Shown in pieces: positions 2,630-44,168 of a stretch of DNA of 64,000 bases. Every line of letters starts with the position of its first letter. Within the stretch, counting starts at the first letter, position 1. Below the pieces are notes generated by a model that was not told the DNA's origin, did no database searches, and was given only the letters and a program-made list of their open reading frames with translations. The stretch covers positions 24,367 through 88,366 of the forward strand of contig CALZJE010000008.1 in NCBI GenBank assembly GCA_945787715.1. The letters are read 5' to 3'. Made by a program: the position numbers and the translations under genes. Origin of the DNA: an uncultured Ectothiorhodospiraceae bacterium (GTDB lineage: Bacteria > Pseudomonadota > Gammaproteobacteria > S012-40).

Positions 2630-3910
2630 TTAGGATGCTGATTTCAATTCGTCTTTTTTCTTAAACAAATTACGTAGCACTGGGAATATGTCCGAAACTT
2701 CAACAATTTTTCTCATCGCAAAGTTTGAAAAGCTCTGTTCTACTTTTTCATATTCATGCCATAAGCTTTGATGGTTATCAGGTGTGATTTCTACGTAAGA
2801 ATAATATTGCACAAGCGGCATTATTTTCTCTGAGAGAATTTCTCTGCATGCGGGAGAGTCATCATACCAGTTGTCACCATCCGAGGCTTGAGCAATATAA
2901 ATATTCCAGTCATTGGTCGGGTAGCGGGTTGAAGCAATCTCATGCATAAGCTTTAGCGCGCTTGAAACAACCGTGCCGCCTGTTTCACGGGAGTAAAAGA
3001 ACTCTTGCTCTGTGACTTCTTTGGCCGTGGTATGATGGCTGATAAAAACTAACTCGATTTTTTCATAATTACGAGTGAGGAAAAGGTAGAGCAGAATGAA
3101 AAAGCGTTTTGCGATCTCTTTTTTCGATTGATCCATGGAGCCTGAAACATCCATGACACAAAACATAACAGCTTGAGTCGTAGGCTTCGGTACGTCAACA
3201 TGATTGTTGTAACGTAAATCAAATTCATCAATATAGGGGACCGATTTGATTTTTTTTTCGAGGAAAACAATTTGTTCTTTAAGAGCTTCAATCTTGGCAG
3301 TGTTGCTTGAAGTGTCTTTTAGAAGTTCCTCTAAATCCTCCTGACATTCTTTCAACTCTCGCTTATAGGGCGTCCTCAGTGCAATGCGTCGTGCATGCGC
3401 GTTTCGCAGGGAGCGTACAACATTAATGTTAGCAGGGATGCCATTTGCTTTAAATCCGGCTCTTGACTTCTTTTTATCATATATGGTGGTAACCTGTGTT
3501 TTTACCAGATTAGGGAGTTCCATATCTTCAAAAAAGAAATCCATAAATTCTTCTTTGCTGATTTCGAAAACAAATTCGTCTTGACCGTCTCCCGAATCTG
3601 ATGCTTGATTCCCTTGGCCCTTTCCGCTTTTTTGTTGGGGACGCTTGATTTTATCACCAGGAACAAACTCTTTATTCCCAGGGTGGATCATTTCACGTTT
3701 CCCACCCTGGCCATGATAGATTATCGGTTCAGATATATCTTTCGCAGGTATAGAAATAGATTCTCCACTTTCTATATCGGTGATGCTGCGGTTAGATATG
3801 GCATCGGTTACCGCTTTCTTTATTTGCGATTTGTAACGTTTTAAGAAGCGCTGACGATTAACCGCACTCTTGTTCTTTGCGTTAATACGCTTGTCTATTA
3901 GTCGAGTCAT
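2630..3910 (-). CDS. yeaH: YeaH/DUF444 family protein (vWA-like)
   Basis: 426 aa with a basic N-terminus (MTRLIDKRINAKNKSAVNRQRFLKRYK...). Typical DUF444 partner located between PrkA and SpoVR. Confidence 0.85.
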   Translation of the reverse strand: MTRLIDKRINAKNKSAVNRQRFLKRYKSQIKKAVTDAISNRSITDIESGESISIPAKDISEPIIYHGQGGKREMIHPGNKEFVPGDKIKRPQQKSGKGQGNQASDSGDGQDEFVFEISKEEFMDFFFEDMELPNLVKTQVTTIYDKKKSRAGFKANGIPANINVVRSLRNAHARRIALRTPYKRELKECQEDLEELLKDTSSNTAKIEALKEQIVFLEKKIKSVPYIDEFDLRYNNHVDVPKPTTQAVMFCVMDVSGSMDQSKKEIAKRFFILLYLFLTRNYEKIELVFISHHTTAKEVTEQEFFYSRETGGTVVSSALKLMHEIASTRYPTNDWNIYIAQASDGDNWYDDSPACREILSEKIMPLVQYYSYVEITPDNHQSLWHEYEKVEQSFSNFAMRKIVEVSDIFPVLRNLFKKKDELKSAS

Positions 3911-7893: not shown

Positions 7894-8194
7894 AACGTTC
7901 TATTGATTATACGCCATTATCGATTTCAAATTATGTGCTTCTAATCTCTCATGTCGTATTTTGGTAAAGTCAATGAAAGTGAGAAATATATTTGCATACC
8001 AAAATAAAAAATAAATTTCTGGTGTAAAATGCAATATTCTGGTTGGAAAATTGCGTACATAAATGCCCTGAGTGTTTATGATAGCACTCACATTTTTCGA
8101 ATTAAAAAGATATTATTTTTGTAAATGATGCGTTAAAATTATTACCCTTCCTAATTTAATTTATAGAAGAATTTTGTGATTGTTTCGGTTAGAT

Positions 8195-19950: not shown

Positions 19951-20026
19951 GGGGCTATAGCTCAGCTGGGAGAGCGCTACACTGGCAGTGTAGAGGTCGG
20001 CGGTTCGATCCCGCCTAGCTCCACCA
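19951..20026 (+). tRNA. tRNA-Ala (anticodon GGC)
   Basis: 76 nt. GGGGCTATAGCTCAGCTGGGAGAGCG...CCACCA with the anticodon loop CTGGCAG. Cloverleaf is readable by eye. Confidence 0.85.
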
Positions 20027-20073
20027 GGGTTTAAAGTAAATAGCACCGACTGCAAGATTTGAAGGTTAATTAT

Positions 20074-20149
20074 GTCCCCTTCGTCTAGTGGCCTAGGACA
20101 CCGCCCTTTCACGGCGGTAACAGGGGTTCGAGTCCCCTAGGGGACGCCA
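20074..20149 (+). tRNA. tRNA-Glu (anticodon TTC), copy 1
   Basis: GTCCCCTTCGTCTAGTGGCCTAGGACACCGCCCTTTCACGGCGG...GGGGACGCCA. Near-identical to E. coli tRNA-Glu. Confidence 0.9.
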
Positions 20150-20158
20150 CTATTCTAA

Positions 20159-20186
20159 GGCTTAGCTAAGGCTAAGCCTTTTTTAA
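20159..20186 (+). terminator. Rho-independent terminator after tRNA-Glu copy 1
   Basis: GGCTTAGCTAAGGCTAAGCC followed by TTTTTT. Confidence 0.6.
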
Positions 20187-20306
20187 TGACCAAGTTTACT
20201 TGGTGTTAATAAAAGTAATACCGAATAAGTAGTAATCTCGTACATTATTTGTTCGCAAGGTAAGCAGTAAAATATTTGTAGTACACTGAGAATTGAAGGT
20301 TTATAT

Positions 20307-20382
20307 GTCCCCTTCGTCTAGTGGCCTAGGACACCGCCCTTTCACGGCGGTAACAGGGGTTCGAGTCCCCTAGGGGACGCCA
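20307..20382 (+). tRNA. tRNA-Glu (anticodon TTC), copy 2
   Basis: Identical 76-nt sequence to copy 1. The leader is also duplicated (GAAGGTTnAnnATGTCCCC). Confidence 0.9.
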
Positions 20383-24785: not shown

Positions 24786-25088
24786 TTATTTCGGGTCAAT
24801 ATTGGATGGAGGAATAATTTTTTCGCTTTTCCCATTGAGTTGAAACACGAATGAGAGCACGACGGCAACAGCCTGATAGAGATTGGAGGGAATTTCTTCA
24901 TCAATTTCGATTCGTGAAAGTAATTTAACTAGCTCGCTATCTTGATAGAGCGTAACGCCATGCTCTTCTGCTATCTCAACGATTTTTTCTGCAATAATGC
25001 CGTCACCTTTTGCGACTACCTTGGGCGCGTTTTCAATATTGTATTTTAACGCGACAGCTTGAAGATTTTTTTTATCATCGTCGCTCAT
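24786..25088 (-). CDS. FlhB C-terminal domain-like small protein (EscU/YscU/FlhB-C family paralogue)
   Basis: 100 aa. AVALKYNIENAPKVVAKGDGIIAEKIVEIAEEHGVTLYQDSELVKLL aligns with the FlhB cytoplasmic C-terminal domain. Overlaps the upstream gene by 4 nt. Confidence 0.7.
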   Translation of the reverse strand: MSDDDKKNLQAVALKYNIENAPKVVAKGDGIIAEKIVEIAEEHGVTLYQDSELVKLLSRIEIDEEIPSNLYQAVAVVLSFVFQLNGKSEKIIPPSNIDPK

Positions 25089-26755
25089 GCTTTCAAATCC
25101 ACAAGATTACTAGAGTTAATTGTTTCATGGTTGTGAGAGAGAGGTGGTTTACCTTGGTGGCAAGCGATGTTTTCTGATTTAAATCCTGATTTTTGAAGGT
25201 TTTCTTGTAGCTTGTTAACATTTTGGCGGGTTATTTCATAGGTATCGTCTCTCTCAGCCCATAAAACCACGCCAATGTTTTCGCTAATCAAGGTGATTCG
25301 TGCATGTATAGGGCCGAGTGATTCCAGTTCAATCGCTAAATTTACCGTCACGACGGCATCAGCTTCCTGCTCAGTCGCTTGTTCTTTTTCGTAACGCATT
25401 TGTATGAGATGTATATCTTCACCATCTTGTGCTGGAATTTCCATGCTCCAGGCAAGTTTCCCATTATCTTGTTCTTGTAAGGTGTTGAGTTGATGAAGTT
25501 GAGTGCGGGAAATTGCGGAATCCACAGATTTAACAAGATTGTCAATCATATCTACCAGGCTTGATATGCGAGGTGTAACATTCGATTGTTTTGGATCTGT
25601 TTTAGTCGCAACAAAATCAAGTGCATGTTTAATATTACCGAATTCTTTATTGTAGGTAGGAACTGTTTTGCTAATTTGAGGCGTGTTTGTAATTGGCTGT
25701 TGAAGTAGTGATTGTACTAGTGGTTTTTGAGTAGTTACCTTAGTTAACTCTTTGGGAATTATTTTGTGCTGCTGGCTGATAACTTTTATTGCTTGCTGCG
25801 TTTGTTCAATCTTAATTTGTTGAGCAATGTTTTCAACAGATTTTGTTGTTGCTTGTGTAGTATTTATTGTTTTATTTTCAGAATTAGTTTTTATCTGTAA
25901 CGCCGCTTCTTGTTTTACTTGCTCTGTATTTTTAATAGTGTTGGTTTGTATTACTTGATTATCTAAAGGTGTTTTCGCTTGTGTATTTGAAATACTTGCT
26001 TTAATTAGAGGTTGTTGCGGGGGCAGTTTATTAGTCTGGGGCTGTTGCGTTAAACTGCTCTGAAGTTTTATTGTTTGTTGTGTCGAGCTGTTCTGTAATT
26101 TTGTTTCCTGTTGAATAGGGTTGTTTTGAAGTTTTGTTGTTTGCTGAGTTGTAGACTGTTCTTTACTCAATGCATTTTTAAAATTTATGAGTAACGACTT
26201 CAAATCTTTTTTAATTATCGAAGCTGTGTTATTTGTAATAATGTCCTTTAAGTTTTTTTCCAATAATAAACCTGAATTTTTAATGGCTGATTTGACGCCT
26301 TCAGCCGTTGATAACTGTTTGGTTGTTGGAAGTTGTTTTATAAAGCTCCTTGAAACTTGAACCAATTTTTGCGGTATTTGTAATGGTTTGGCGTGTTTGA
26401 TGACATTCTGGATCTGTTGAATAGCGAAACCAATCGGTTTTTGTTGAGGTAACGTTTGCCGCATCGCTTGCTCGGTCACTAGTGAGCTGATGAGCTTTTC
26501 GGGCAGTTGAAGTGTAATTTGTTTTCCGGTTTGAGCAACAAGGAGTTGCAATATTTGGTCGGTTTTCAGGGGCAGCGTCGTTTTTGCATTCAGTAGTGTG
26601 TTATTGATATTTAAAGTGACTTCGCCAGATGCTGAGTTAAGTGAAATGACTTTAGCGAGTAACTGCTGGCCTACGCTCAGGTTATTGGCAGGCATCTTCC
26701 CTGAAGAGACCGTGAGCGTTTGTAAGGCAGCGATTTGTGTTGGCGTGAGTTCCAT
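25085..26755 (-). CDS. FliK-like hook-length control protein homologue (Gln/Thr-rich and repetitive)
   Basis: 556 aa. Long Q/T-rich low-complexity middle with KLQ-type repeats. The C-terminal block (AWSMEIPAQDGEDIHLIQMRYEKEQ...VNLAIELESLGPIHARITL) resembles the FliK Flg_hook domain. Confidence 0.6.
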   Translation of the reverse strand: MELTPTQIAALQTLTVSSGKMPANNLSVGQQLLAKVISLNSASGEVTLNINNTLLNAKTTLPLKTDQILQLLVAQTGKQITLQLPEKLISSLVTEQAMRQTLPQQKPIGFAIQQIQNVIKHAKPLQIPQKLVQVSRSFIKQLPTTKQLSTAEGVKSAIKNSGLLLEKNLKDIITNNTASIIKKDLKSLLINFKNALSKEQSTTQQTTKLQNNPIQQETKLQNSSTQQTIKLQSSLTQQPQTNKLPPQQPLIKASISNTQAKTPLDNQVIQTNTIKNTEQVKQEAALQIKTNSENKTINTTQATTKSVENIAQQIKIEQTQQAIKVISQQHKIIPKELTKVTTQKPLVQSLLQQPITNTPQISKTVPTYNKEFGNIKHALDFVATKTDPKQSNVTPRISSLVDMIDNLVKSVDSAISRTQLHQLNTLQEQDNGKLAWSMEIPAQDGEDIHLIQMRYEKEQATEQEADAVVTVNLAIELESLGPIHARITLISENIGVVLWAERDDTYEITRQNVNKLQENLQKSGFKSENIACHQGKPPLSHNHETINSSNLVDLKA

Positions 26756-26814: not shown

Positions 26815-27411
26815 TTAAACTTCAATTTCTGCAATCAGCGCGCCAAACGAGAAGGTTGTGTAGCGTTCAACTTTGATATTATTTGACCAATAATCAAAAG
26901 GTAAGCCAGCTTTTTCTTTCAAGTGGCGTAAAAAGTTTTTTGTATCCGGTATGCTCTCCCATACACTGGGTAAAAATGTGCCTCTTTGATAATCTTCAGA
27001 CAATATCAAACCATCAGTGCTGGGTCTGATTTTTTGTAGTAAATCATCCTCATTTTTGAATGAGATTGGTTCAGGCTCCGATAATATGGAAATATGAATA
27101 TCGAGATTACTAAATTCAACGCTTGAGAGTTTCGGAAAACGAGGATCGTTAAATGCGGCAGAGTATGCGTTTTCTGCTACATCTTCAGCGAGTGGTCGGG
27201 ATGCTAGTAATCGACCAATACAGCCTCGTAGTTGCTTATTAATCTCTAATGTGACAAAGGTTGCTCGAATGTCTGAAAGTGTGGGTGGATAGTGACTAAG
27301 TTCAATAAATAATGGATTATTATTTTTTAGGCCTGACTCAATGGATTTCGCTGCAATAGATAAAAGCAGAGTCTGTTCTTCCTGTGAATATGGGATATCA
27401 ATAGAAGGCAT
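26815..27411 (-). CDS. AMMECR1 domain protein (AmmeMemoRadiSam system protein A)
   Basis: LRGCIG motif. About 198 aa from the ATG at 27411. The longer track ORF (start 27507) would overlap the MEMO1 gene by 110 nt. Confidence 0.8.
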   Translation of the reverse strand: MPSIDIPYSQEEQTLLLSIAAKSIESGLKNNNPLFIELSHYPPTLSDIRATFVTLEINKQLRGCIGRLLASRPLAEDVAENAYSAAFNDPRFPKLSSVEFSNLDIHISILSEPEPISFKNEDDLLQKIRPSTDGLILSEDYQRGTFLPSVWESIPDTKNFLRHLKEKAGLPFDYWSNNIKVERYTTFSFGALIAEIEV

Positions 27412-28183
27412 ACGCACCGTATCCAACAACTCTGTTTTTATCACCTTCGGTGTCTCCAGAATTTCTAAGATCAAGGGTTTTACAATGCAAATTATGTTTT
27501 TTTGCAAATTTTAAAAGCCCATTAACTGGGTAAGTGCCACATGCCATCTCTCCTGTAATTGTGCCAAACTGGAGTTGCTCTATGGCAGTTGTTGTTTGTT
27601 GGTCAATTTCTTGTGCTGTTTTATAGTCATGAAAATGACTTAAATCAGAGCTGATAACAAAAAAAGTTGCTGGATCATCCCAAAATAAATCTAATACCTC
27701 CTCTACAGCGCTTGAAGTCATATCACCTACGGCTATCGGTACCAGGCTGAACTCATCTAATACAGTTTGTAGAAAAGGGAGGTGGACTTCTAAGCTATGT
27801 TCGTCCTGATGTGCCATATCGCTTAGTTGAACATTAGGATTTTTTAAGAGTGCTTGCACTGCATCCGTATCAATTGCTATATCACCTAAAGGGGTCCGGA
27901 AATAGTCTGCACTACTGACTGCGCAACCATGAACTGCTACGCGATGTGTTGGTCCAAGTAATACGACACGACGAATCTTTTCTCTTAATGGCTCTAATAG
28001 TTTATAAGCACTTGCAGCAATCTCACCTGAATAGATGTACCCAGCATGAGGAACAATTATCGCACGTGGCGTGATATTTCTAGCGGGCGCATTGTTGAGT
28101 ATATCATTCAACAACTCTTGCAAAACTTTTGCATTATTGGGATAAAAAAGCCCGGCAACGGCAGGTTCTCTTATAGTAGGCAT
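27398..28183 (-). CDS. MEMO1 family protein (AmmeMemoRadiSam system protein B)
   Basis: 261 aa. AGLFYP...PHAGYIYSG...LGPTH motifs are typical of MEMO1/extradiol-dioxygenase-like proteins. Confidence 0.8.
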   Translation of the reverse strand: MPTIREPAVAGLFYPNNAKVLQELLNDILNNAPARNITPRAIIVPHAGYIYSGEIAASAYKLLEPLREKIRRVVLLGPTHRVAVHGCAVSSADYFRTPLGDIAIDTDAVQALLKNPNVQLSDMAHQDEHSLEVHLPFLQTVLDEFSLVPIAVGDMTSSAVEEVLDLFWDDPATFFVISSDLSHFHDYKTAQEIDQQTTTAIEQLQFGTITGEMACGTYPVNGLLKFAKKHNLHCKTLDLRNSGDTEGDKNRVVGYGAYAFY

Positions 28184-28243
28184 TGTAATGTTCCCTTTTA
28201 AATACTACATATAAGTATATGGCTAATGTGTAATTTATCAATG

Positions 28244-28251
28244 TTATCGGC
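28244..28251 (-). promoter_or_regulatory. Candidate sigma-28 (FliA) -10 box GCCGATAA upstream of the MEMO1-family gene
   Basis: Perfect 8/8 GCCGATAA on the minus strand, 60 nt upstream of the ATG at 28183. The -35 is weak (GAATTCAT) and overlaps the start of the divergent radical SAM gene. Confidence 0.35.
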
Positions 28252-28262
28252 GAGGTGGTGAG

Positions 28263-29357
28263 ATGAATTCTGAATATCGGGCAACAAAGTATTGGCATAA
28301 GCTTGATGATGGAAGAATACAGTGTGATTTATGTCCGCGATATTGCAAGCTGCACGAAGGCCAGCAGGGATTATGTTTTGTTCGTGCAAACTTTGACGAT
28401 CAAATAGTGAGTACGACTTATGGTCGTTCCAGCGGGTATTGTATTGATCCTATCGAAAAAAAGCCGTTAAATCATTTTTTACCTGGCACACCCGTCCTCT
28501 CATTCGGCACGGCAGGGTGTAATTTAGCGTGTAAATTTTGTCAAAACTGGGATATGAGTAAGTCGCGTGAAATGGATACGCTTGCTGATCAGGCTTCACC
28601 AGAATTAATTGCGCAAGTTGCCGAACAGACCGGCTGCCGAAGTGTTGCGTATACCTACAATGACCCTGTCATATTTTTAGAATATGCTGTTGATACCGCA
28701 ATCGCATGTGCGGAAAAAAATATTAAATCTGTTGCAGTGACTGCGGGTTATATTTGTGAAGAACCCCGCAAAGAATTTTTTAAACACATGGATGCTGCCA
28801 ATATTGACCTAAAGGCGTTTACTGAACGTTTTTACCATAAAATCACTGGTTCACATCTCGGCAATATATTGGATACTTTGCAATATGTAAAACACGAAAC
28901 TAATGTGTGGTTAGAGATAACGAATTTATTAATTCCAGGAGAAAATGATTCCCCCGAAGAGTTGGAAAAAATGACCCAATGGGTTGTCGAAAAACTCGGG
29001 CCTGATGTACCCATGCACTTCACAGCATTTCATCCTGATTGGAAGATGCTAGATTATCCTCCAACCCCCATGAAAACACTCACCCAAGCAAGAGAAATCG
29101 CGATAAAGAACGGTGTTCGATATGTATATACGGGTAATGTTCACGATAAAAAAGGCGAGAGTACATATTGTCACTCATGTGGTGAAAGATTGATTGGTAG
29201 AGACTGGTATGTGTTGAGTGAGTGGAATATGGATAATAATGGCCATTGTCAAAAATGTGGGACTAAATGTAGCGGTGTATTTGAGAATCAAATGGGTACA
29301 TGGGGAGCAAAGCGGCAACCTATCAGATTGGCTGATTTCAGAGAGATTGTAGTTTAA
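28263..29357 (+). CDS. AmmeMemoRadiSam system radical SAM enzyme (PFL-activase-like)
   Basis: CNLACKFC is a CxxxCxxC radical SAM cluster motif. An additional N-terminal Cys cluster (CDLCPRYC) is present. GAGGTGG Shine-Dalgarno before the ATG. Confidence 0.85.
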   Translation: MNSEYRATKYWHKLDDGRIQCDLCPRYCKLHEGQQGLCFVRANFDDQIVSTTYGRSSGYCIDPIEKKPLNHFLPGTPVLSFGTAGCNLACKFCQNWDMSKSREMDTLADQASPELIAQVAEQTGCRSVAYTYNDPVIFLEYAVDTAIACAEKNIKSVAVTAGYICEEPRKEFFKHMDAANIDLKAFTERFYHKITGSHLGNILDTLQYVKHETNVWLEITNLLIPGENDSPEELEKMTQWVVEKLGPDVPMHFTAFHPDWKMLDYPPTPMKTLTQAREIAIKNGVRYVYTGNVHDKKGESTYCHSCGERLIGRDWYVLSEWNMDNNGHCQKCGTKCSGVFENQMGTWGAKRQPIRLADFREIVV

Positions 29358-29578: not shown

Positions 29579-31999
29579 GTGGTGGCAAAACATACGGGAA
29601 TTATCAGTATATCAGTGCTTTTTTTGGCGTTATTGTTGATAAGTTGTGTTCCTCAGGGCGATCTCAAACAAAAAGTCGATATTAACGTTATTGGAGGAAC
29701 TAACCTCGTTACAACGGAAGGCGGTTCTGAAACTTCTTTACTCATTTATCTCTCAACTGCACCGACCTCAGATGTTACATTTCCCTTTGAGAGTGGTGAC
29801 CCAACGGAAATCTTGTTAGGAAGCGACCAGTTACCGGCAGATCAACAAGGTAAAACCGTATTGTTAACATTTACACCAGAAAATTGGTCTAGCACTCAAA
29901 AATTGAAGCTTTATGGGCAGGACGATAAGGAGCTTGATGGCAATCAAGATATTACGGTGATTACTCATCCAGCACTTAGTAGCGATGTTAGGTATGAAGG
30001 ATTAGATCCCGGTGATTATAAAGTAACAAATGAAGATGATGATGAGGCGGGTATTCTTTTTTCAGGTATTACCTTAACAGATATTTCGCTGACAGATCTT
30101 ACTCTTGCCGACCTTGAATTAGGACGGCTTACCTTAGCAGATATTTTCCTGACCGACATTAAACTCACTGATGCCACTCTGACTGACGGTAAACTAACTG
30201 ATCTTGCTCTTACTGACCTGAGTTTGGGAGACCTTGCGTTAGCAGATGGTTCTTTGGGAAAACGTACTTTGGCGCACCTAACGCTGGAAGATATTACTCA
30301 AGCAAACTATGCGCTGTCAGACCTTACATTAACAGAAACTGCCCTGACAAAGTTTGATTTAAAAACGCTCACATTGAAAGACCATGTTCTGAAAGAAATA
30401 GTATTGAAAAACCGAATTCTTATAGATGTCGCAGCATATGACATCGCTTTAAATGACATTGTTATGAAAGATATAGTGTTGACAACGATAGATAATTTGT
30501 CAACTTCCGAGAGTGGTGAAACGACTGTGTTTAATGCCACGTTGAATACAAAACCTAAAGGAAATGTTGAATTTGATCTAATTATTCAATATGCAAGCGA
30601 GGGATTACTATCATTAAGCTCTTCTGTTAGTAGTGCAGTCAATGAATTAACAATGACGTTCACAGAAGCAAACTGGAATGTTCCACAGGCAATAAATGTA
30701 TTTGGTCAAGATGACTTCCGAGTTGATGGTGATCTAAGGCATGCCATAATCACATCACTACTCAGAAGTAGTGACTCTGATTATAATGACGTAGAGCCGT
30801 TGAATGTGACTGTCCAAAATATTGATGATGATATTGCTTCTTATACGGTATGTCCTAGCATGCCAATAGAGATAAGTGAATTTGAAAAAGTCTGTAATGA
30901 TAAATCATCACCTTTAATAATTTCCAATGAGGGCGTGAATACTTTTTATCTTTACCTTGATAGCATGCCTGCTCAATATTTGGAAATACCGATAACATCA
31001 AGTGATACTCAAATTGGTAAACTAAAATTGGCTGGAGATACAGCAGTATCCAAAGGCTCAGTATCTGTTGAATTTCCTCTCTCGGACTGGAATACACCAC
31101 AACCTGTTTCAATAATCAGGCAAGGTGAAGCATCGAATGACAGCGTATCGGAATTTTCTATCATATTTCATCCTGTTTTAACCAAAGACCAAAAATTTCA
31201 GAGAATAGTACAACCTGACCTTGAGGTTATTAATCTTGGAGATGCTCCAGGTGTATTTATTAATCCGATAAAAGATTTGATTACTTCAGAAGATGGTCAA
31301 GACGCTGAGTTCACCATACGTTTAACATCGGAGCCACAGTCTCCGGTTGAATTTTTACTAACTTCTGAAAAACCTGAAGAGGGATTGTTAATCGGTGGCG
31401 ATTCAGCAAATACTGAGGCGGCTGAAATAGAGATAGAATTCACACCTGATAATTGGTCAACGCAACAGCTCATCACTGTTAAAGGCCAGAATGATGACCT
31501 TGAGGATGGCAACCAGACGTATACAATTATTTCTCAAACAGTGACAAGTGACGATAGTGATTTTGGTGGATTAGTCCCGATAAATCCGGAAAATATTATT
31601 GTCACAAATATTGACGATGACAGCCCAGATTTTATATTCACCCCCATCTCATCGCTAGAAACCTCAGATTCTGGGAAAATAGCACAATTTTCATATTCGT
31701 TAACTACCCAACCTGATGCTGATGTTGTTGTAGATGTTTCTGTAAGTGATTCGTCTGAAGGGCAGCTATTGAAAAATTTAAGCAATAAGCATTCTTTTAA
31801 GTTAACAATGATATTTACACCGGTTAATTGGTCAATTCCTCAAGTTGTGTATGTCACTGGTATTGGTGATGATATTCTTGATGGCGATCAGCCCAATAAT
31901 ATTTCTATTGCTGTGAACAATACTTTAACCATGGATACGACCGGGTATGCAGATGTTAAATCAACGATTACAGTGACTAATATAGATGATGATTATTGA
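29579..31999 (+). CDS. Large lipoprotein with pentapeptide repeats and four Calx-beta-like domains
   Basis: Lipobox LLISC. A run of about 45 pentapeptide units (LTDISLTDLTLADLELGRLTLADIFLTDIKLTD...). Four repeated modules end in DGNQ...V(T)N(I)DDD. Confidence 0.6.
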   Translation: MVAKHTGIISISVLFLALLLISCVPQGDLKQKVDINVIGGTNLVTTEGGSETSLLIYLSTAPTSDVTFPFESGDPTEILLGSDQLPADQQGKTVLLTFTPENWSSTQKLKLYGQDDKELDGNQDITVITHPALSSDVRYEGLDPGDYKVTNEDDDEAGILFSGITLTDISLTDLTLADLELGRLTLADIFLTDIKLTDATLTDGKLTDLALTDLSLGDLALADGSLGKRTLAHLTLEDITQANYALSDLTLTETALTKFDLKTLTLKDHVLKEIVLKNRILIDVAAYDIALNDIVMKDIVLTTIDNLSTSESGETTVFNATLNTKPKGNVEFDLIIQYASEGLLSLSSSVSSAVNELTMTFTEANWNVPQAINVFGQDDFRVDGDLRHAIITSLLRSSDSDYNDVEPLNVTVQNIDDDIASYTVCPSMPIEISEFEKVCNDKSSPLIISNEGVNTFYLYLDSMPAQYLEIPITSSDTQIGKLKLAGDTAVSKGSVSVEFPLSDWNTPQPVSIIRQGEASNDSVSEFSIIFHPVLTKDQKFQRIVQPDLEVINLGDAPGVFINPIKDLITSEDGQDAEFTIRLTSEPQSPVEFLLTSEKPEEGLLIGGDSANTEAAEIEIEFTPDNWSTQQLITVKGQNDDLEDGNQTYTIISQTVTSDDSDFGGLVPINPENIIVTNIDDDSPDFIFTPISSLETSDSGKIAQFSYSLTTQPDADVVVDVSVSDSSEGQLLKNLSNKHSFKLTMIFTPVNWSIPQVVYVTGIGDDILDGDQPNNISIAVNNTLTMDTTGYADVKSTITVTNIDDDY

Positions 32000-32150: not shown

Positions 32151-32789
32151 ATGACTAAAAAAAATAGTGCAGACACAGTCGTGGTACTGGATTTTGAAAC
32201 AACCGGAATGTCTCCATCCATGGGAGATAGGCCAATTGAGGTTGGTGCGGTAAAAATTTCACAAGGCATTATTATTGAACGATTTCAGCAGTTGATGAAT
32301 CCTGGTTGTTTTGTTGACTCCTTTATCGAAGATTTCACAGGGATTACAAATAAGATGTTGAGAGATGCACCACCTTGTTATGAGGTAATGGAATCGTTTG
32401 CTCATTTTATCGAAGGTTACAATCTCGTTGCGCACAATGCATCTTTTGATAAACGTTTTTTAGATGCTGAATTTGAGAGAATTGGATGTCACTATTCAGG
32501 CCTGTTTTCCTGTTCAATGTTAGTTTCGAGAAGGCTCTACCAGAATGCATTTAATCATAAGCTTCATACTTTAGTTGAGTATAAGAATATTCCAACAGAT
32601 GGGGTATTCCATAGAGCACTTGCAGATGCGGAAATGACAGGCTTACTATGGGTAGCTATGCTAGAAGATATTGTTAATCAGTATGGAATTTACGAAGTTC
32701 CCTTTTCATTGATGAATAAGTTATCTCGAACGCCTAAGGCTACAGTGAATAAATTGTTATTTGAATATAGCATTGAGAATTCCAATTAG
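32151..32789 (+). CDS. DnaQ-like 3'-5' exonuclease (DEDDh family)
   Basis: VVLDFETTGMS Exo I motif, and HNASFDKRFL and HRALADAEMT Exo II/III motifs. Confidence 0.8.
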   Translation: MTKKNSADTVVVLDFETTGMSPSMGDRPIEVGAVKISQGIIIERFQQLMNPGCFVDSFIEDFTGITNKMLRDAPPCYEVMESFAHFIEGYNLVAHNASFDKRFLDAEFERIGCHYSGLFSCSMLVSRRLYQNAFNHKLHTLVEYKNIPTDGVFHRALADAEMTGLLWVAMLEDIVNQYGIYEVPFSLMNKLSRTPKATVNKLLFEYSIENSN

Positions 32790-43761: not shown

Positions 43762-43836
43762 GCGGGAATAGCTCAGTGGTAGAGCACAACCTTGCCAAGG
43801 TTGGGGTCGCGAGTTCGAGCCTCGTTTCCCGCTCCA
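43762..43836 (+). tRNA. tRNA-Gly (anticodon GCC)
   Basis: GCGGGAATAGCTCAGTGGTAGAGCACAACCTTGCCAAGGTTG...TCCA. Same position as glyW in E. coli. Confidence 0.9.
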
Positions 43837-43947
43837 AATTCTAGAGCCTCGGCTGTACAGTCGGGGTTTTTTAATTCTTAAAGTATGACTGAATAAATAA
43901 CAAATGATTCTGTTATTGAAGATTCTGTTATTATAGTAACGAGCATT

Positions 43948-44021
43948 GGCTGGGTGGCAGAGTGGTGATGCAGCGGCCTGCAAAGCCGTCAACAGCGGTT
44001 CGATTCCGCTCCTAGCCTCCA
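43948..44021 (+). tRNA. tRNA-Cys (anticodon GCA)
   Basis: 74 nt. Anticodon loop CTGCAAA. Acceptor stem GGCTGGG/CCTAGCC with one G-U pair. Confidence 0.85.
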
Positions 44022-44081
44022 TACAATTTGTATGTTGTGATTCTGACGCTTGGCAGCGTAGAATGTTAAAGCCATACCCTA

Positions 44082-44168
44082 GCCCGGGTGGCGAAATTGG
44101 TAGACGCAAGGGACTTAAAATCCCTCGAGGGAAACCTCGTGCCGGTTCGATTCCGGCCCCGGGCACCA
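44082..44168 (+). tRNA. tRNA-Leu (anticodon TAA), with long variable arm
   Basis: 87 nt. GCCCGGGTGGCGAAATTGGTAGACGCAAGGGACTTAAAATCCC...CACCA. Confidence 0.9.

What the first reader, a model, noticed from the sequence alone, without database searches (positions are those of the whole stretch)
26815..29357. Complete AmmeMemoRadiSam triad (AMMECR1 + MEMO1 + radical SAM activase) in divergent arrangement
All three signature components are present: an LRGCIG AMMECR1 protein, a MEMO1-family protein, and a CxxxCxxC radical SAM enzyme of the PFL-activase type with an extra N-terminal Cys cluster. The function of this widely distributed triad is unknown. Here the AMMECR1 gene overlaps the MEMO1 gene by 14 nt, and the radical SAM gene is divergently transcribed from a shared 79-bp control region.
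Basis: partly seen in the sequence, partly recalled or inferred. Interest (0 to 1): 0.55.

Follow-up and report, generated by a model that had tools for sequence, protein, structure and literature searches.

The report
Standard AmmeMemoRadiSam three-gene locus
The window holds an intact copy of a widespread three-gene system already in the databases (AMMECR1-like, Memo-like and a radical SAM enzyme); its chemistry is still unknown, and this copy is an ordinary one in the usual layout.

Summary
amrA (AMMECR1, 26815..27411, -) overlaps amrB (Memo, 27398..28183, -) by 14 nt. amrS (radical SAM, 28263..29357, +) is transcribed divergently across a 79-bp spacer. All three pass the NCBIfam/TIGRFAM AmmeMemoRadiSam models by wide margins: 201 bits against a cut-off of 99, 277 against 26, and 664 against 220. 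The pflA model fails (60 against 232), and the window has no glycyl-radical motif.

The locus is not unusual. The same head-to-head layout occurs in 47 of 83 related loci. A public metagenome contig carries a 97% identical AmrS with the same layout, overlap and spacer.

New support for a single complex:
- Natural fusions occur in three domain orders.
- AmrS is far more conserved (about 73% identity across phyla) than AmrA and AmrB (about 54%).
- No fourth gene is conserved next to the triad.

My proposed mechanism, which is inferred and not shown: AmrS makes a 5'-deoxyadenosyl radical that acts on a macromolecular substrate held by AmrA and AmrB, most likely an RNA base (about 0.35). The system is already known and of low interest.

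The parts
26815..27411 (-). amrA: AmmeMemoRadiSam system protein A (AMMECR1 family), 198 aa from the ATG at 27411
   Evidence: TIGR04335 scores 201.1 bits against a cut-off of 99, covering model positions 2-174 of 175. Pfam AMMECR1 scores 159.8 bits. PDB sequence hits are 1wsc, 1zq7 and 1vaj, with E down to 1.7e-23. The same 198-aa gene call is made in L001.
27214..27231 (-). LRGCIG motif of AmrA (L61-G66; Cys64 is the proposed catalytic cysteine)
   Evidence: Read from the sequence. G63, C64 and G66, and also D89, R91 and F92 (the DxRF motif), are conserved in at least 95% of 38 AmrA homologues (where ORF numbering is 32 higher). The motif was proposed as the active site by Balaji and Aravind 2007 (PMC2034487).
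27398..28183 (-). amrB: AmmeMemoRadiSam system protein B (Memo family), 261 aa; its last 14 nt overlap the start of amrA
   Evidence: TIGR04336 scores 277.2 bits against a cut-off of 26, covering the whole model, 1-270 of 270. Pfam Memo scores 205.4 bits. Human MEMO1 (7kq8, 3bcz) matches at E 1e-32, with AmrB H46 aligned to MEMO1 H49, H80 to H81, D180 to D189 and H183 to H192. H46, H80, H125, E128, H129, D180, H183 and C215 are conserved in at least 95% of 38 homologues.
28184..28262 (.). 79-bp divergent spacer between amrB and amrS
   Evidence: The spacer has the same length and nearly the same sequence in L001, and is partly conserved in L002, L004 and L007.
28214..28241 (-). Sigma-70-like promoter candidate for amrB-amrA (TTGATA, 16 nt, TATACT)
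   Evidence: It matches 10 of 12 consensus positions. Both hexamers are conserved in L001 and L002. AGTATA, which is TATACT on the amrB strand, occurs in 11 of 48 homologous spacers against 3.1 in shuffles, with a maximum of 10 in 300 shuffles. This is only a consensus match; the region as a whole has no excess of such sites.
28263..29357 (+). amrS: AmmeMemoRadiSam system radical SAM enzyme, 364 aa
28323..28376 (+). N-terminal four-Cys set of AmrS (C21, C24, C28, C38)
   Evidence: Invariant in 38 close homologues. Present in 51-53 of 54 diverse family representatives. The metal bound there is not known.
28518..28541 (+). CX3CX2C radical SAM cluster motif (C86, C90, C93)
   Evidence: Invariant in close homologues and present in 50 of 54 diverse representatives.
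29169..29258 (+). C-terminal CX2C...CX2C set of AmrS (C303, C306, C329, C332), resembling a zinc ribbon or an auxiliary cluster site
Evidence: Invariant in close homologues and present in 51 of 54 diverse representatives.

Best explanation
This is an intact, ordinary AmmeMemoRadiSam locus (amrA and amrB on one strand, amrS facing them) in an uncultured gammaproteobacterium with about 39% G+C.

Shown here:
- All three proteins are full-length members of the three curated families and keep the conserved residues of each.
- The three gene products belong together.

Inferred mechanism:
1. The three proteins act as one complex.
2. AmrS binds a [4Fe-4S] cluster at C86/C90/C93, cleaves S-adenosylmethionine and produces a 5'-deoxyadenosyl radical. 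Its two extra four-Cys sites hold further metal centres, used for electron supply or for structure.
3. Because the AmrS core is built like pyruvate formate-lyase activase, which has an open barrel that accepts a macromolecule, the radical abstracts a hydrogen from a large substrate rather than from a small free metabolite.
4. AmrA presents or covalently holds that substrate in its inter-domain cleft through Cys64 of the LRGCIG loop.
5. AmrB uses its His46/His80/Cys215 iron (or copper) site for a coupled redox or oxygen-dependent step.
6. The substrate I consider most likely is a base in a conserved RNA (tRNA or rRNA).

Likelihoods: identity as an Amr triad about 0.97; the three acting as one complex about 0.85; a macromolecular substrate about 0.6; RNA specifically about 0.35.
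For: Identity:
- NCBIfam scores are far above the cut-offs, with full model coverage, and Pfam agrees.
- Gene calls are the same in the 97%-identical contig L001.

One complex:
- Natural fusions exist in three forms: AmrS-AMMECR1-Memo (P0122 from a Phycisphaeraceae bacterium, also P0126, P0139, P0140), Memo-AMMECR1-AmrS (P0181) and AmrS-AMMECR1 (P0137).
- The head-to-head adjacency occurs in 47 of 83 loci from several phyla.

Activase-like core:
- The secondary NCBIfam hits are mostly glycyl-radical-enzyme activases, with NrdG and MoaA as well.

Strong constraint on AmrS:
- Identity is 70-80% to homologues from Gammaproteobacteria, Nitrospirota, Gemmatimonadota, Chloroflexota, Acidobacteriota and Opitutae.
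- In the same loci the medians are 73.6% for AmrS, 55.0% for AmrB and 53.4% for AmrA.

Conserved residues and metal sites:
- AmrB H46 and H80 align with MEMO1 H49 and H81, which coordinate Fe or Cu together with C244 (PMC11081632). C215 is conserved in at least 95% of 38 AmrB homologues.
- The three Cys sets of AmrS are conserved family-wide.

Lean towards RNA:
- AMMECR1 has two RAGNYA domains, a fold that typically binds nucleic acids, with the conserved Cys in a cleft (PMC2034487).
- Archaeal AMMECR1 genes sit next to NFACT and the Mut7-C RNase (PMC4075521).
- Here, RtcB RNA ligase, a PRTase and PolX/PHP lie directly downstream of amrS in 5 loci.

No fourth gene is conserved next to the triad. 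That fits a substrate that is a general cell component.
Against: - No experiment on any member was found, so every step beyond family membership is inference.
- None of the fusions examined carries a recognisable RNA-binding domain.
- The RtcB link is confined to five loci, two of them labelled Acidiferrobacterales or Sulfuricaulis and three labelled no more finely than Gammaproteobacteria or Pseudomonadota. It may reflect inherited gene order only.
- 18 loci with at least 2 kb on both sides carry amrS without amrA or amrB nearby, and an archaeal amrS is also alone. I could not test whether those genomes have A and B elsewhere.
- From my own knowledge, eukaryotes keep AMMECR1 and MEMO1 without an AmrS homologue, so A and B can work without the radical SAM partner.
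- The AlphaFold2 model is only moderate (mean pLDDT 74, low around the cluster loops), and I had no coordinates to check the geometry of the Cys sets.
Confidence: 0.85

Rival explanations
1. AmrS is a true protein activase. It abstracts a hydrogen from, or post-translationally modifies, a residue of AmrA (for example in the Gly-Cys-Ile-Gly loop) or of AmrB. This would turn the A/B pair into a radical or modified-cysteine enzyme, as PFL activase does for pyruvate formate-lyase and as the anaerobic sulfatase-maturating enzyme does for its target cysteine.
For: - Most secondary NCBIfam hits are glycyl-radical activases.
- The three domains are fused in some bacteria.
- No other candidate substrate gene is conserved nearby.
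- AmrA has an invariant exposed G-C-x-G loop (PMC2034487).
Against: - AmrS is much more conserved than its supposed substrates: 73.6% against 55.0% and 53.4%.
- LRGCIG is not the RVxG[FWY] glycyl-radical motif.
- From my own knowledge, aerobic eukaryotes keep the same AMMECR1 and Memo motifs without AmrS.
- 18 loci, and archaea, have amrS apart from amrA and amrB.
- Two extra four-Cys sites are not a feature of simple activases such as PflA.
Confidence: 0.2
2. The triad modifies a lipid or another small molecule, such as an aliphatic isoprenoid or a cofactor precursor. AmrB would act as a LigB-type oxygenase-like enzyme and AmrS would supply radical C-H activation.
For: - From my recollection of its abstract, Burroughs et al. 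2019 (J Biol Chem 294:10211; the paper is not held in the library) linked the genomic contexts of the Memo clade to aliphatic isoprenoid modification as well as to nucleotide bases.
- The Memo metal site closely resembles that of extradiol dioxygenases (PMC11081632).
- mogA (molybdenum cofactor biosynthesis) lies within 0.1-4 kb downstream of amrS in the window and in about 6 related loci.
Against: - No isoprenoid or lipid gene was seen next to the triad in any of the loci examined.
- MEMO1 showed no dioxygenase activity on the standard substrates tried (PMC11081632).
- The PFL-AE-like open core and the RAGNYA fold of AmrA point to a macromolecule.
- The mogA neighbourhood is limited to related gammaproteobacteria.
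Confidence: 0.2
3. The radical SAM gene is an ordinary pflA-type glycyl-radical-enzyme activase that merely sits next to an unrelated AMMECR1/Memo pair.
For: Some sources (JGI) label homologues 'pyruvate formate lyase activating enzyme'. The fold is closest to PFL-AE.
Against: - TIGR02493 scores 59.9 bits against a cut-off of 231.75, while TIGR04337 scores 663.8 against 220.
- The window has no glycyl-radical motif in any frame.
- The adjacency recurs in 47 of 83 loci.
- Fusions of the three domains exist.
Confidence: 0.01

Closest known systems
AmmeMemoRadiSam system (NCBIfam/TIGRFAM TIGR04335 protein A, TIGR04336 protein B, TIGR04337 radical SAM enzyme; called amrA/amrB/amrS in this report)
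   Same: All three models are passed with full-length coverage. The conserved motifs are present and the three genes are adjacent. The head-to-head layout matches 47 of 83 related loci.
   Different: Nothing of substance differs. The 14-nt amrB/amrA overlap and the 79-bp spacer are shared with the nearest relative L001. The flanking genes (FliK-like, FlhB-C-like, amidase, mogA) reflect local gene order shared with some related gammaproteobacteria.
Pyruvate formate-lyase activating enzyme and other glycyl-radical-enzyme activases (PflA TIGR02493; PDB 3c8f)
   Different: - Identity in the structural alignment is only 17%.
- The pflA score is far below its cut-off.
- AmrS is about 120 residues longer, with N- and C-terminal four-Cys modules that the 245-residue PflA chain is too short to hold.
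- No glycyl-radical enzyme is encoded nearby.
Human MEMO1 (PDB 3bcz, 7kq8) and the LigB-type extradiol dioxygenase superfamily
   Same: AmrB aligns with MEMO1 at E 1e-32. The metal ligands H49 and H81, and the nearby D189 and H192, are conserved. A conserved Cys (C215) stands where MEMO1 has C244; that equivalence is inferred.
   Different: AmrB is shorter, 261 aa against 297. It occurs with a radical SAM partner that eukaryotes lack. MEMO1 has no known enzymatic activity (PMC11081632).
Archaeal AMMECR1 proteins of known structure (PH0010 1vaj, ST0229 1wsc, MM0484 1zq7) and human AMMECR1
   Same: The family is the same (E 1e-18 to 1e-23). The LRGCIG and DxRF motifs are kept.
   Different: The archaeal genes are usually not next to amrS and sit in a context of NFACT and the Mut7-C RNase (PMC4075521). 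None has an assigned activity.

Membership tests
AmmeMemoRadiSam system protein A (TIGR04335 / Pfam AMMECR1) | Score above the curated cut-off with full-length coverage | tested here: met
   201.1 bits against 99, model positions 2-174 of 175. Pfam 159.8 against 25.
AmmeMemoRadiSam system protein A (TIGR04335 / Pfam AMMECR1) | Conserved RGChG cysteine motif and DxR-aromatic motif (Balaji and Aravind 2007) | tested here: met
   LRGCIG at residues 61-66 and DPRF at 89-92. Both are conserved in at least 95% of 38 homologues.
AmmeMemoRadiSam system protein B (TIGR04336 / Pfam Memo) | Score above the curated cut-off with full-length coverage | tested here: met
   277.2 bits against 26, model positions 1-270 of 270. 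Pfam 205.4 against 27.
AmmeMemoRadiSam system protein B (TIGR04336 / Pfam Memo) | Metal-site residues equivalent to MEMO1 H49, H81 and C244 | tested here: met
   H46 and H80 align with H49 and H81. C215 is conserved in at least 95% of 38 homologues, but its equivalence to C244 is inferred, because the local alignment stops at residue 186.
AmmeMemoRadiSam system radical SAM enzyme (TIGR04337) | Score above the curated cut-off with full-length coverage | tested here: met
   663.8 bits against 220, model positions 1-349 of 349.
AmmeMemoRadiSam system radical SAM enzyme (TIGR04337) | CX3CX2C motif plus the family's N-terminal and C-terminal four-Cys sets | tested here: met
   C86/90/93, C21/24/28/38 and C303/306/329/332 are all present. 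Each is conserved in 50-53 of 54 diverse representatives.
AmmeMemoRadiSam system (as a system) | All three components encoded together | tested here: met
   All three lie within 2.55 kb. The same adjacency occurs in 47 of 83 loci, and natural three-domain fusions exist.
AmmeMemoRadiSam system (as a system) | Reductive SAM cleavage by AmrS, Fe-S content, and physical association of the three proteins | not testable with these tools
   This needs anaerobic biochemistry.
Pyruvate formate-lyase activating enzyme PflA (TIGR02493) | Score above the equivalog cut-off | tested here: not met
   59.9 bits against 231.75. PRK11145 scores 27.7 against 375.
Pyruvate formate-lyase activating enzyme PflA (TIGR02493) | A partner glycyl-radical enzyme encoded nearby | tested here: not met
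   No RV[SACT]G[YFW] motif occurs in any of the six frames of the 64-kb window.

The most novel reading that the evidence does not exclude
The triad could be a self-contained radical machine. AmrS, which is unusually conserved, would start a so far undescribed modification of a conserved macromolecule (an RNA base, or a residue of AmrA or AmrB themselves) inside a tight S-A-B complex. If so, a gammaproteobacterial operon like this one would give a tractable route to the unknown biochemical function of human AMMECR1 and MEMO1. The evidence here does not exclude this reading, but it applies to the whole family and not to this locus in particular.
Probability: 0.3. Interest if true: 0.7.

Novelty: already known. 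Interest (0 to 1): 0.2.

Why it matters
AMMECR1 and MEMO1 are conserved from archaea to humans and are linked to disease. No enzymatic activity has been assigned to either, so the prokaryotic triad is the best handle on what they do. This locus adds no new component or layout.

The comparative results gathered here are useful constraints for anyone designing an experiment on the family:
- fusions of the three domains in three orders;
- an AmrS core like PFL activase with two extra conserved four-Cys sites;
- AmrS about 73% identical across phyla, against about 54% for its partners;
- no conserved fourth gene.

Tried and rejected
1. An operator palindrome in the spacer. TATAC-N-GTATA looked conserved in five aligned spacers. 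Across 48 spacers it is not clearly enriched: 23 with two or fewer mismatches against 18.1 in shuffles, and 6 with one or fewer against 2.5. Only the TATACT -10-like hexamer on the amrB strand stands out (11 against 3.1), and the loci are not independent. I dropped the palindrome as an operator claim.

2. A conserved fourth gene. Clustering all ORFs of 83 loci plus the window found nothing beyond the triad in more than 8 loci. Pfam-annotated neighbourhoods of fused and distant members showed no recurring partner.

3. FliK-like and FlhB-C-like genes next to amrA. They recur in about 9 gammaproteobacterial loci, often 2-3 kb away with a pentapeptide-repeat gene in between. I treat this as shared gene order, not as part of the system.

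4. A solved structure for AmrS. The PDB sequence search found none at E up to 0.01.

5. The literature. Six searches found no experimental function. Burroughs et al. 2019 could not be read.

6. A terminator between amrA and the FliK-like gene. None was found, so read-through cannot be excluded.

7. Not done: whether genomes whose amrS stands alone encode amrA and amrB elsewhere. The tools gave only local loci.
Full report
**Observation**

The ORF list and the raw sequence confirm every coordinate in the finding.
- The AMMECR1 gene ends at 26815 on the minus strand. The mechanical ORF begins at a TTG at 27507, but the ATG at 27411 gives a 198-aa protein. That is the start JGI called in the nearest relative (L001).
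- The Memo gene is 27398..28183 (-), 261 aa. The two genes overlap by 14 nt (ATGCCTTCTATTGA).
- The radical SAM gene is 28263..29357 (+), 364 aa, and lies 79 bp from the start of the Memo gene.
- LRGCIG (AmrA 61-66), CX3CX2C (AmrS C86/C90/C93) and the N-terminal Cys set (C21/C24/C28/C38) are all present.
C329-x2-C332.

Against NCBIfam:

| Protein | Model | Bits | Cut-off |
|---|---|---|---|
| AmrA | TIGR04335 | 201.1 | 99 |
| AmrB | TIGR04336 | 277.2 | 26 |
| AmrS | TIGR04337 | 663.8 | 220 |
| AmrS | TIGR02493 (pflA equivalog) | 59.9 | 231.75 |

- Each Amr model is covered almost end to end. The other glycyl-radical activase models are further below their cut-offs than pflA.
- Pfam agrees.
- No glycyl-radical motif RV[SACT]G[YFW] occurs in any frame of the 64-kb window.

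**How ordinary is the locus?**

*Family size*
The best is 97% identical, and several sources already name homologues 'AmmeMemoRadiSam system radical SAM enzyme'.
- In the library clustered at 50% identity there are 8587 representatives at E up to 1e-3, and 1922 at E up to 1e-30.

*Nearest relatives*
- L001 is a JGI metagenome contig. It has the same gene order from the peroxiredoxin to mogA, the same 14-nt overlap and the same 79-bp spacer.
- The best match among species-representative genomes is an uncultured Ectothiorhodospiraceae genome at 80%.
- The source of the window is therefore an uncultured gammaproteobacterium with about 39% G+C.

*Layout across 83 related loci*

| Arrangement | Loci |
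|---|---|
| Head-to-head amrA<amrB <> amrS, adjacent | 47 |
| Head-to-head, amrB farther away | 1 |
| Convergent | 1 |
| amrS without amrA/amrB, at least 2 kb of flank on both sides | 18 |
| No amrB seen, but flank too short to judge | 16 |

The divergent arrangement is thus the standard layout of this clade and not a peculiarity of the window.

**What the comparison adds**

1. *Conservation.* AmrS is 70-80% identical to homologues from Gammaproteobacteria, Nitrospirota, Gemmatimonadota, Chloroflexota, Acidobacteriota and Opitutae. In the same loci the medians are 73.6% for AmrS, 55.0% for AmrB and 53.4% for AmrA.
2. *Cys sets.* All three Cys sets of AmrS are family-wide. They are invariant in 38 close homologues. 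They are present in 50-53 of 54 diverse representatives down to 40% identity, a set that includes an archaeal member.
3. *Fusions.* They strongly suggest that the three act as one physical unit.
   - AmrS-AMMECR1-Memo, about 900-1150 aa. P0122 is from a Phycisphaeraceae bacterium.
   - Memo-AMMECR1-AmrS, 835 aa (P0181).
   - AmrS-AMMECR1, 704 aa, with Memo encoded just downstream (P0137).
4. *Other AmrS variants.* Some copies are fused to a DsbD_2 + FMN_bind + Fer4_5 membrane redox module, which would be a plausible electron supply. One copy carries an intein.
6. *AmrB metal site.* H46 and H80 align with MEMO1 H49 and H81. In MEMO1 these bind Fe or Cu together with C244 (PMC11081632). C215, H125, E128, H129, D180 and H183 are conserved in at least 95% of 38 homologues.
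7. *AmrA.* It matches the archaeal AMMECR1 structures and keeps G63-C64-x-G66 and D89-x-R91-F92.

**Genomic context**
- Clustering all flanking ORFs found no fourth gene in more than 8 loci.
- Five loci, two of them labelled Acidiferrobacterales or Sulfuricaulis, have a phosphoribosyltransferase, RtcB RNA ligase and PolX/PHP directly downstream of amrS.
- About nine gammaproteobacterial loci share the FliK-like and FlhB-C-like pair beyond amrA. About six share mogA downstream.
- Fused and distant members have unrelated neighbours.
- The window's own neighbours are: a FliK-like protein, a FlhB C-terminal-like protein, an amidase, a peroxiredoxin, an 806-aa protein with no Pfam assignment, an RNase_T-type exonuclease, a protein with a GreA/B C-terminal domain, and MogA. 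None has an evident link to the triad.

**Regulation**
- One sigma-70-like site (TTGATA, 16 nt, TATACT; 28241..28214, minus strand) lies in the spacer and would drive amrBA.
- Its hexamers are conserved in L001 and L002.
- TATACT recurs in 11 of 48 homologous spacers, against 3.1 in shuffles.
- The total number of promoter-like sites in the region is at chance level (13 against 15.5). An apparent palindrome is not significantly enriched.
- No terminator-like site separates amrA from the FliK-like gene.
- Shared control of the two transcripts is plausible but not shown.

**Mechanism**

No experimental function was found in the literature I could search. Earlier computational proposals are:
- an RNA base modification, with the AMMECR1 cysteine carrying a group (PMC2034487; PMC4075521);
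- nucleotide-base or aliphatic isoprenoid modification (Burroughs et al. 2019, recalled from its abstract because the paper is not held).

I commit to the following model.
- AmrS, AmrA and AmrB act as one complex (about 0.85, based on the fusions and the adjacency).
- AmrS cleaves SAM at the C86/C90/C93 cluster and abstracts a hydrogen from a macromolecular substrate (about 0.6). This rests on the PFL-AE-like core and the strong conservation of AmrS.
- AmrA's cleft cysteine binds or carries the substrate.
- AmrB's His/His/Cys metal site carries out a coupled redox step.
- The substrate is most likely an RNA base (about 0.35). This rests on the RAGNYA fold, the archaeal NFACT and Mut7-C context, and the RtcB link seen here.

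Rivals:
- AmrS activates or modifies AmrA or AmrB themselves (about 0.2).
- The target is a lipid, isoprenoid or cofactor (about 0.2).
- Coincidental adjacency to a pflA gene is excluded.

**Verdict**

The finding is real and correctly interpreted. It is a routine instance of a curated, widely distributed system, and this locus has no distinguishing feature. The open question of what the triad does is a genuine one, but this window does not make it more testable than thousands of other loci do. Novelty: already known. Interest: 0.2.

Noticed in passing
window 32151..32789 (+): An RNase_T/DnaQ-type 3'-5' exonuclease gene (Pfam RNase_T, 113.5 bits) lies between the 806-aa gene and the GreA-like gene. 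The 97%-related contig L001 has no such gene in the 17 kb held (no tblastn hit), and there the 802-aa gene abuts the GreA-like gene. This is a recent gain or loss between close relatives.
   Followed up: partly
window 29579..31999 (+): An 806-aa protein with a hydrophobic N-terminus and a cysteine that resemble a lipoprotein signal. It has several repeated domains and an LTD/LAD-rich stretch resembling pentapeptide repeats. No Pfam family is above its cut-off. It is only 72% identical in L001, where AmrS is 97%, so it evolves quickly.
   Followed up: partly
window 24786..26755 (-): A FliK-like protein (Flg_hook domain, with a Q/T-rich repetitive middle) and a 100-aa protein matching only the C-terminal domain of FlhB (Bac_export_2) form a pair just beyond amrA. 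The pair recurs near amrA in about 9 gammaproteobacterial loci. No terminator-like site separates it from amrA.
   Followed up: partly
L013, L017, L024, L029, L030 (downstream of amrS at 8001..~9060 in L013, L017, L024 and L030, and at 3910..4965 in L029): RtcB RNA ligase lies downstream of amrS in all five loci, a phosphoribosyltransferase in three of them (L017, L029, L030) and PolX/PHP in three (L013, L017, L029). The loci are Acidiferrobacterales/Sulfuricaulis-labelled or less finely classified gammaproteobacteria. PolX also sits next to the lone amrS of Thiogranum longum (L003).
   Followed up: partly
proteins P0123, P0197, P0206 (homologues of AmrS): P0123 carries an intein with a LAGLIDADG domain, inserted near the CX3CX2C motif. 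P0197 and P0206 fuse AmrS to FMN_bind and Fer4_5 domains, and P0197 also has a DsbD_2 membrane domain. These fusions hint at how the cluster is reduced.
   Followed up: no
loci L004-L083: AmrS is 70-80% identical between distant phyla (Gammaproteobacteria, Nitrospirota, Gemmatimonadota, Chloroflexota, Acidobacteriota, Opitutae). AmrA and AmrB in the same loci are about 54% identical. The cause is either unusually strong constraint or horizontal transfer of amrS.
   Followed up: partly
window 19951..20379 and 43762..44165 (+): Two clusters of three tRNA genes each.
   Followed up: no
P0122 residues ~595-785: In the Phycisphaeraceae triple fusion, about 190 residues between the AMMECR1 and Memo domains match no Pfam family. 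The end of the stretch resembles the C-terminal part of AMMECR1, so it may be a degenerate second copy.
   Followed up: no
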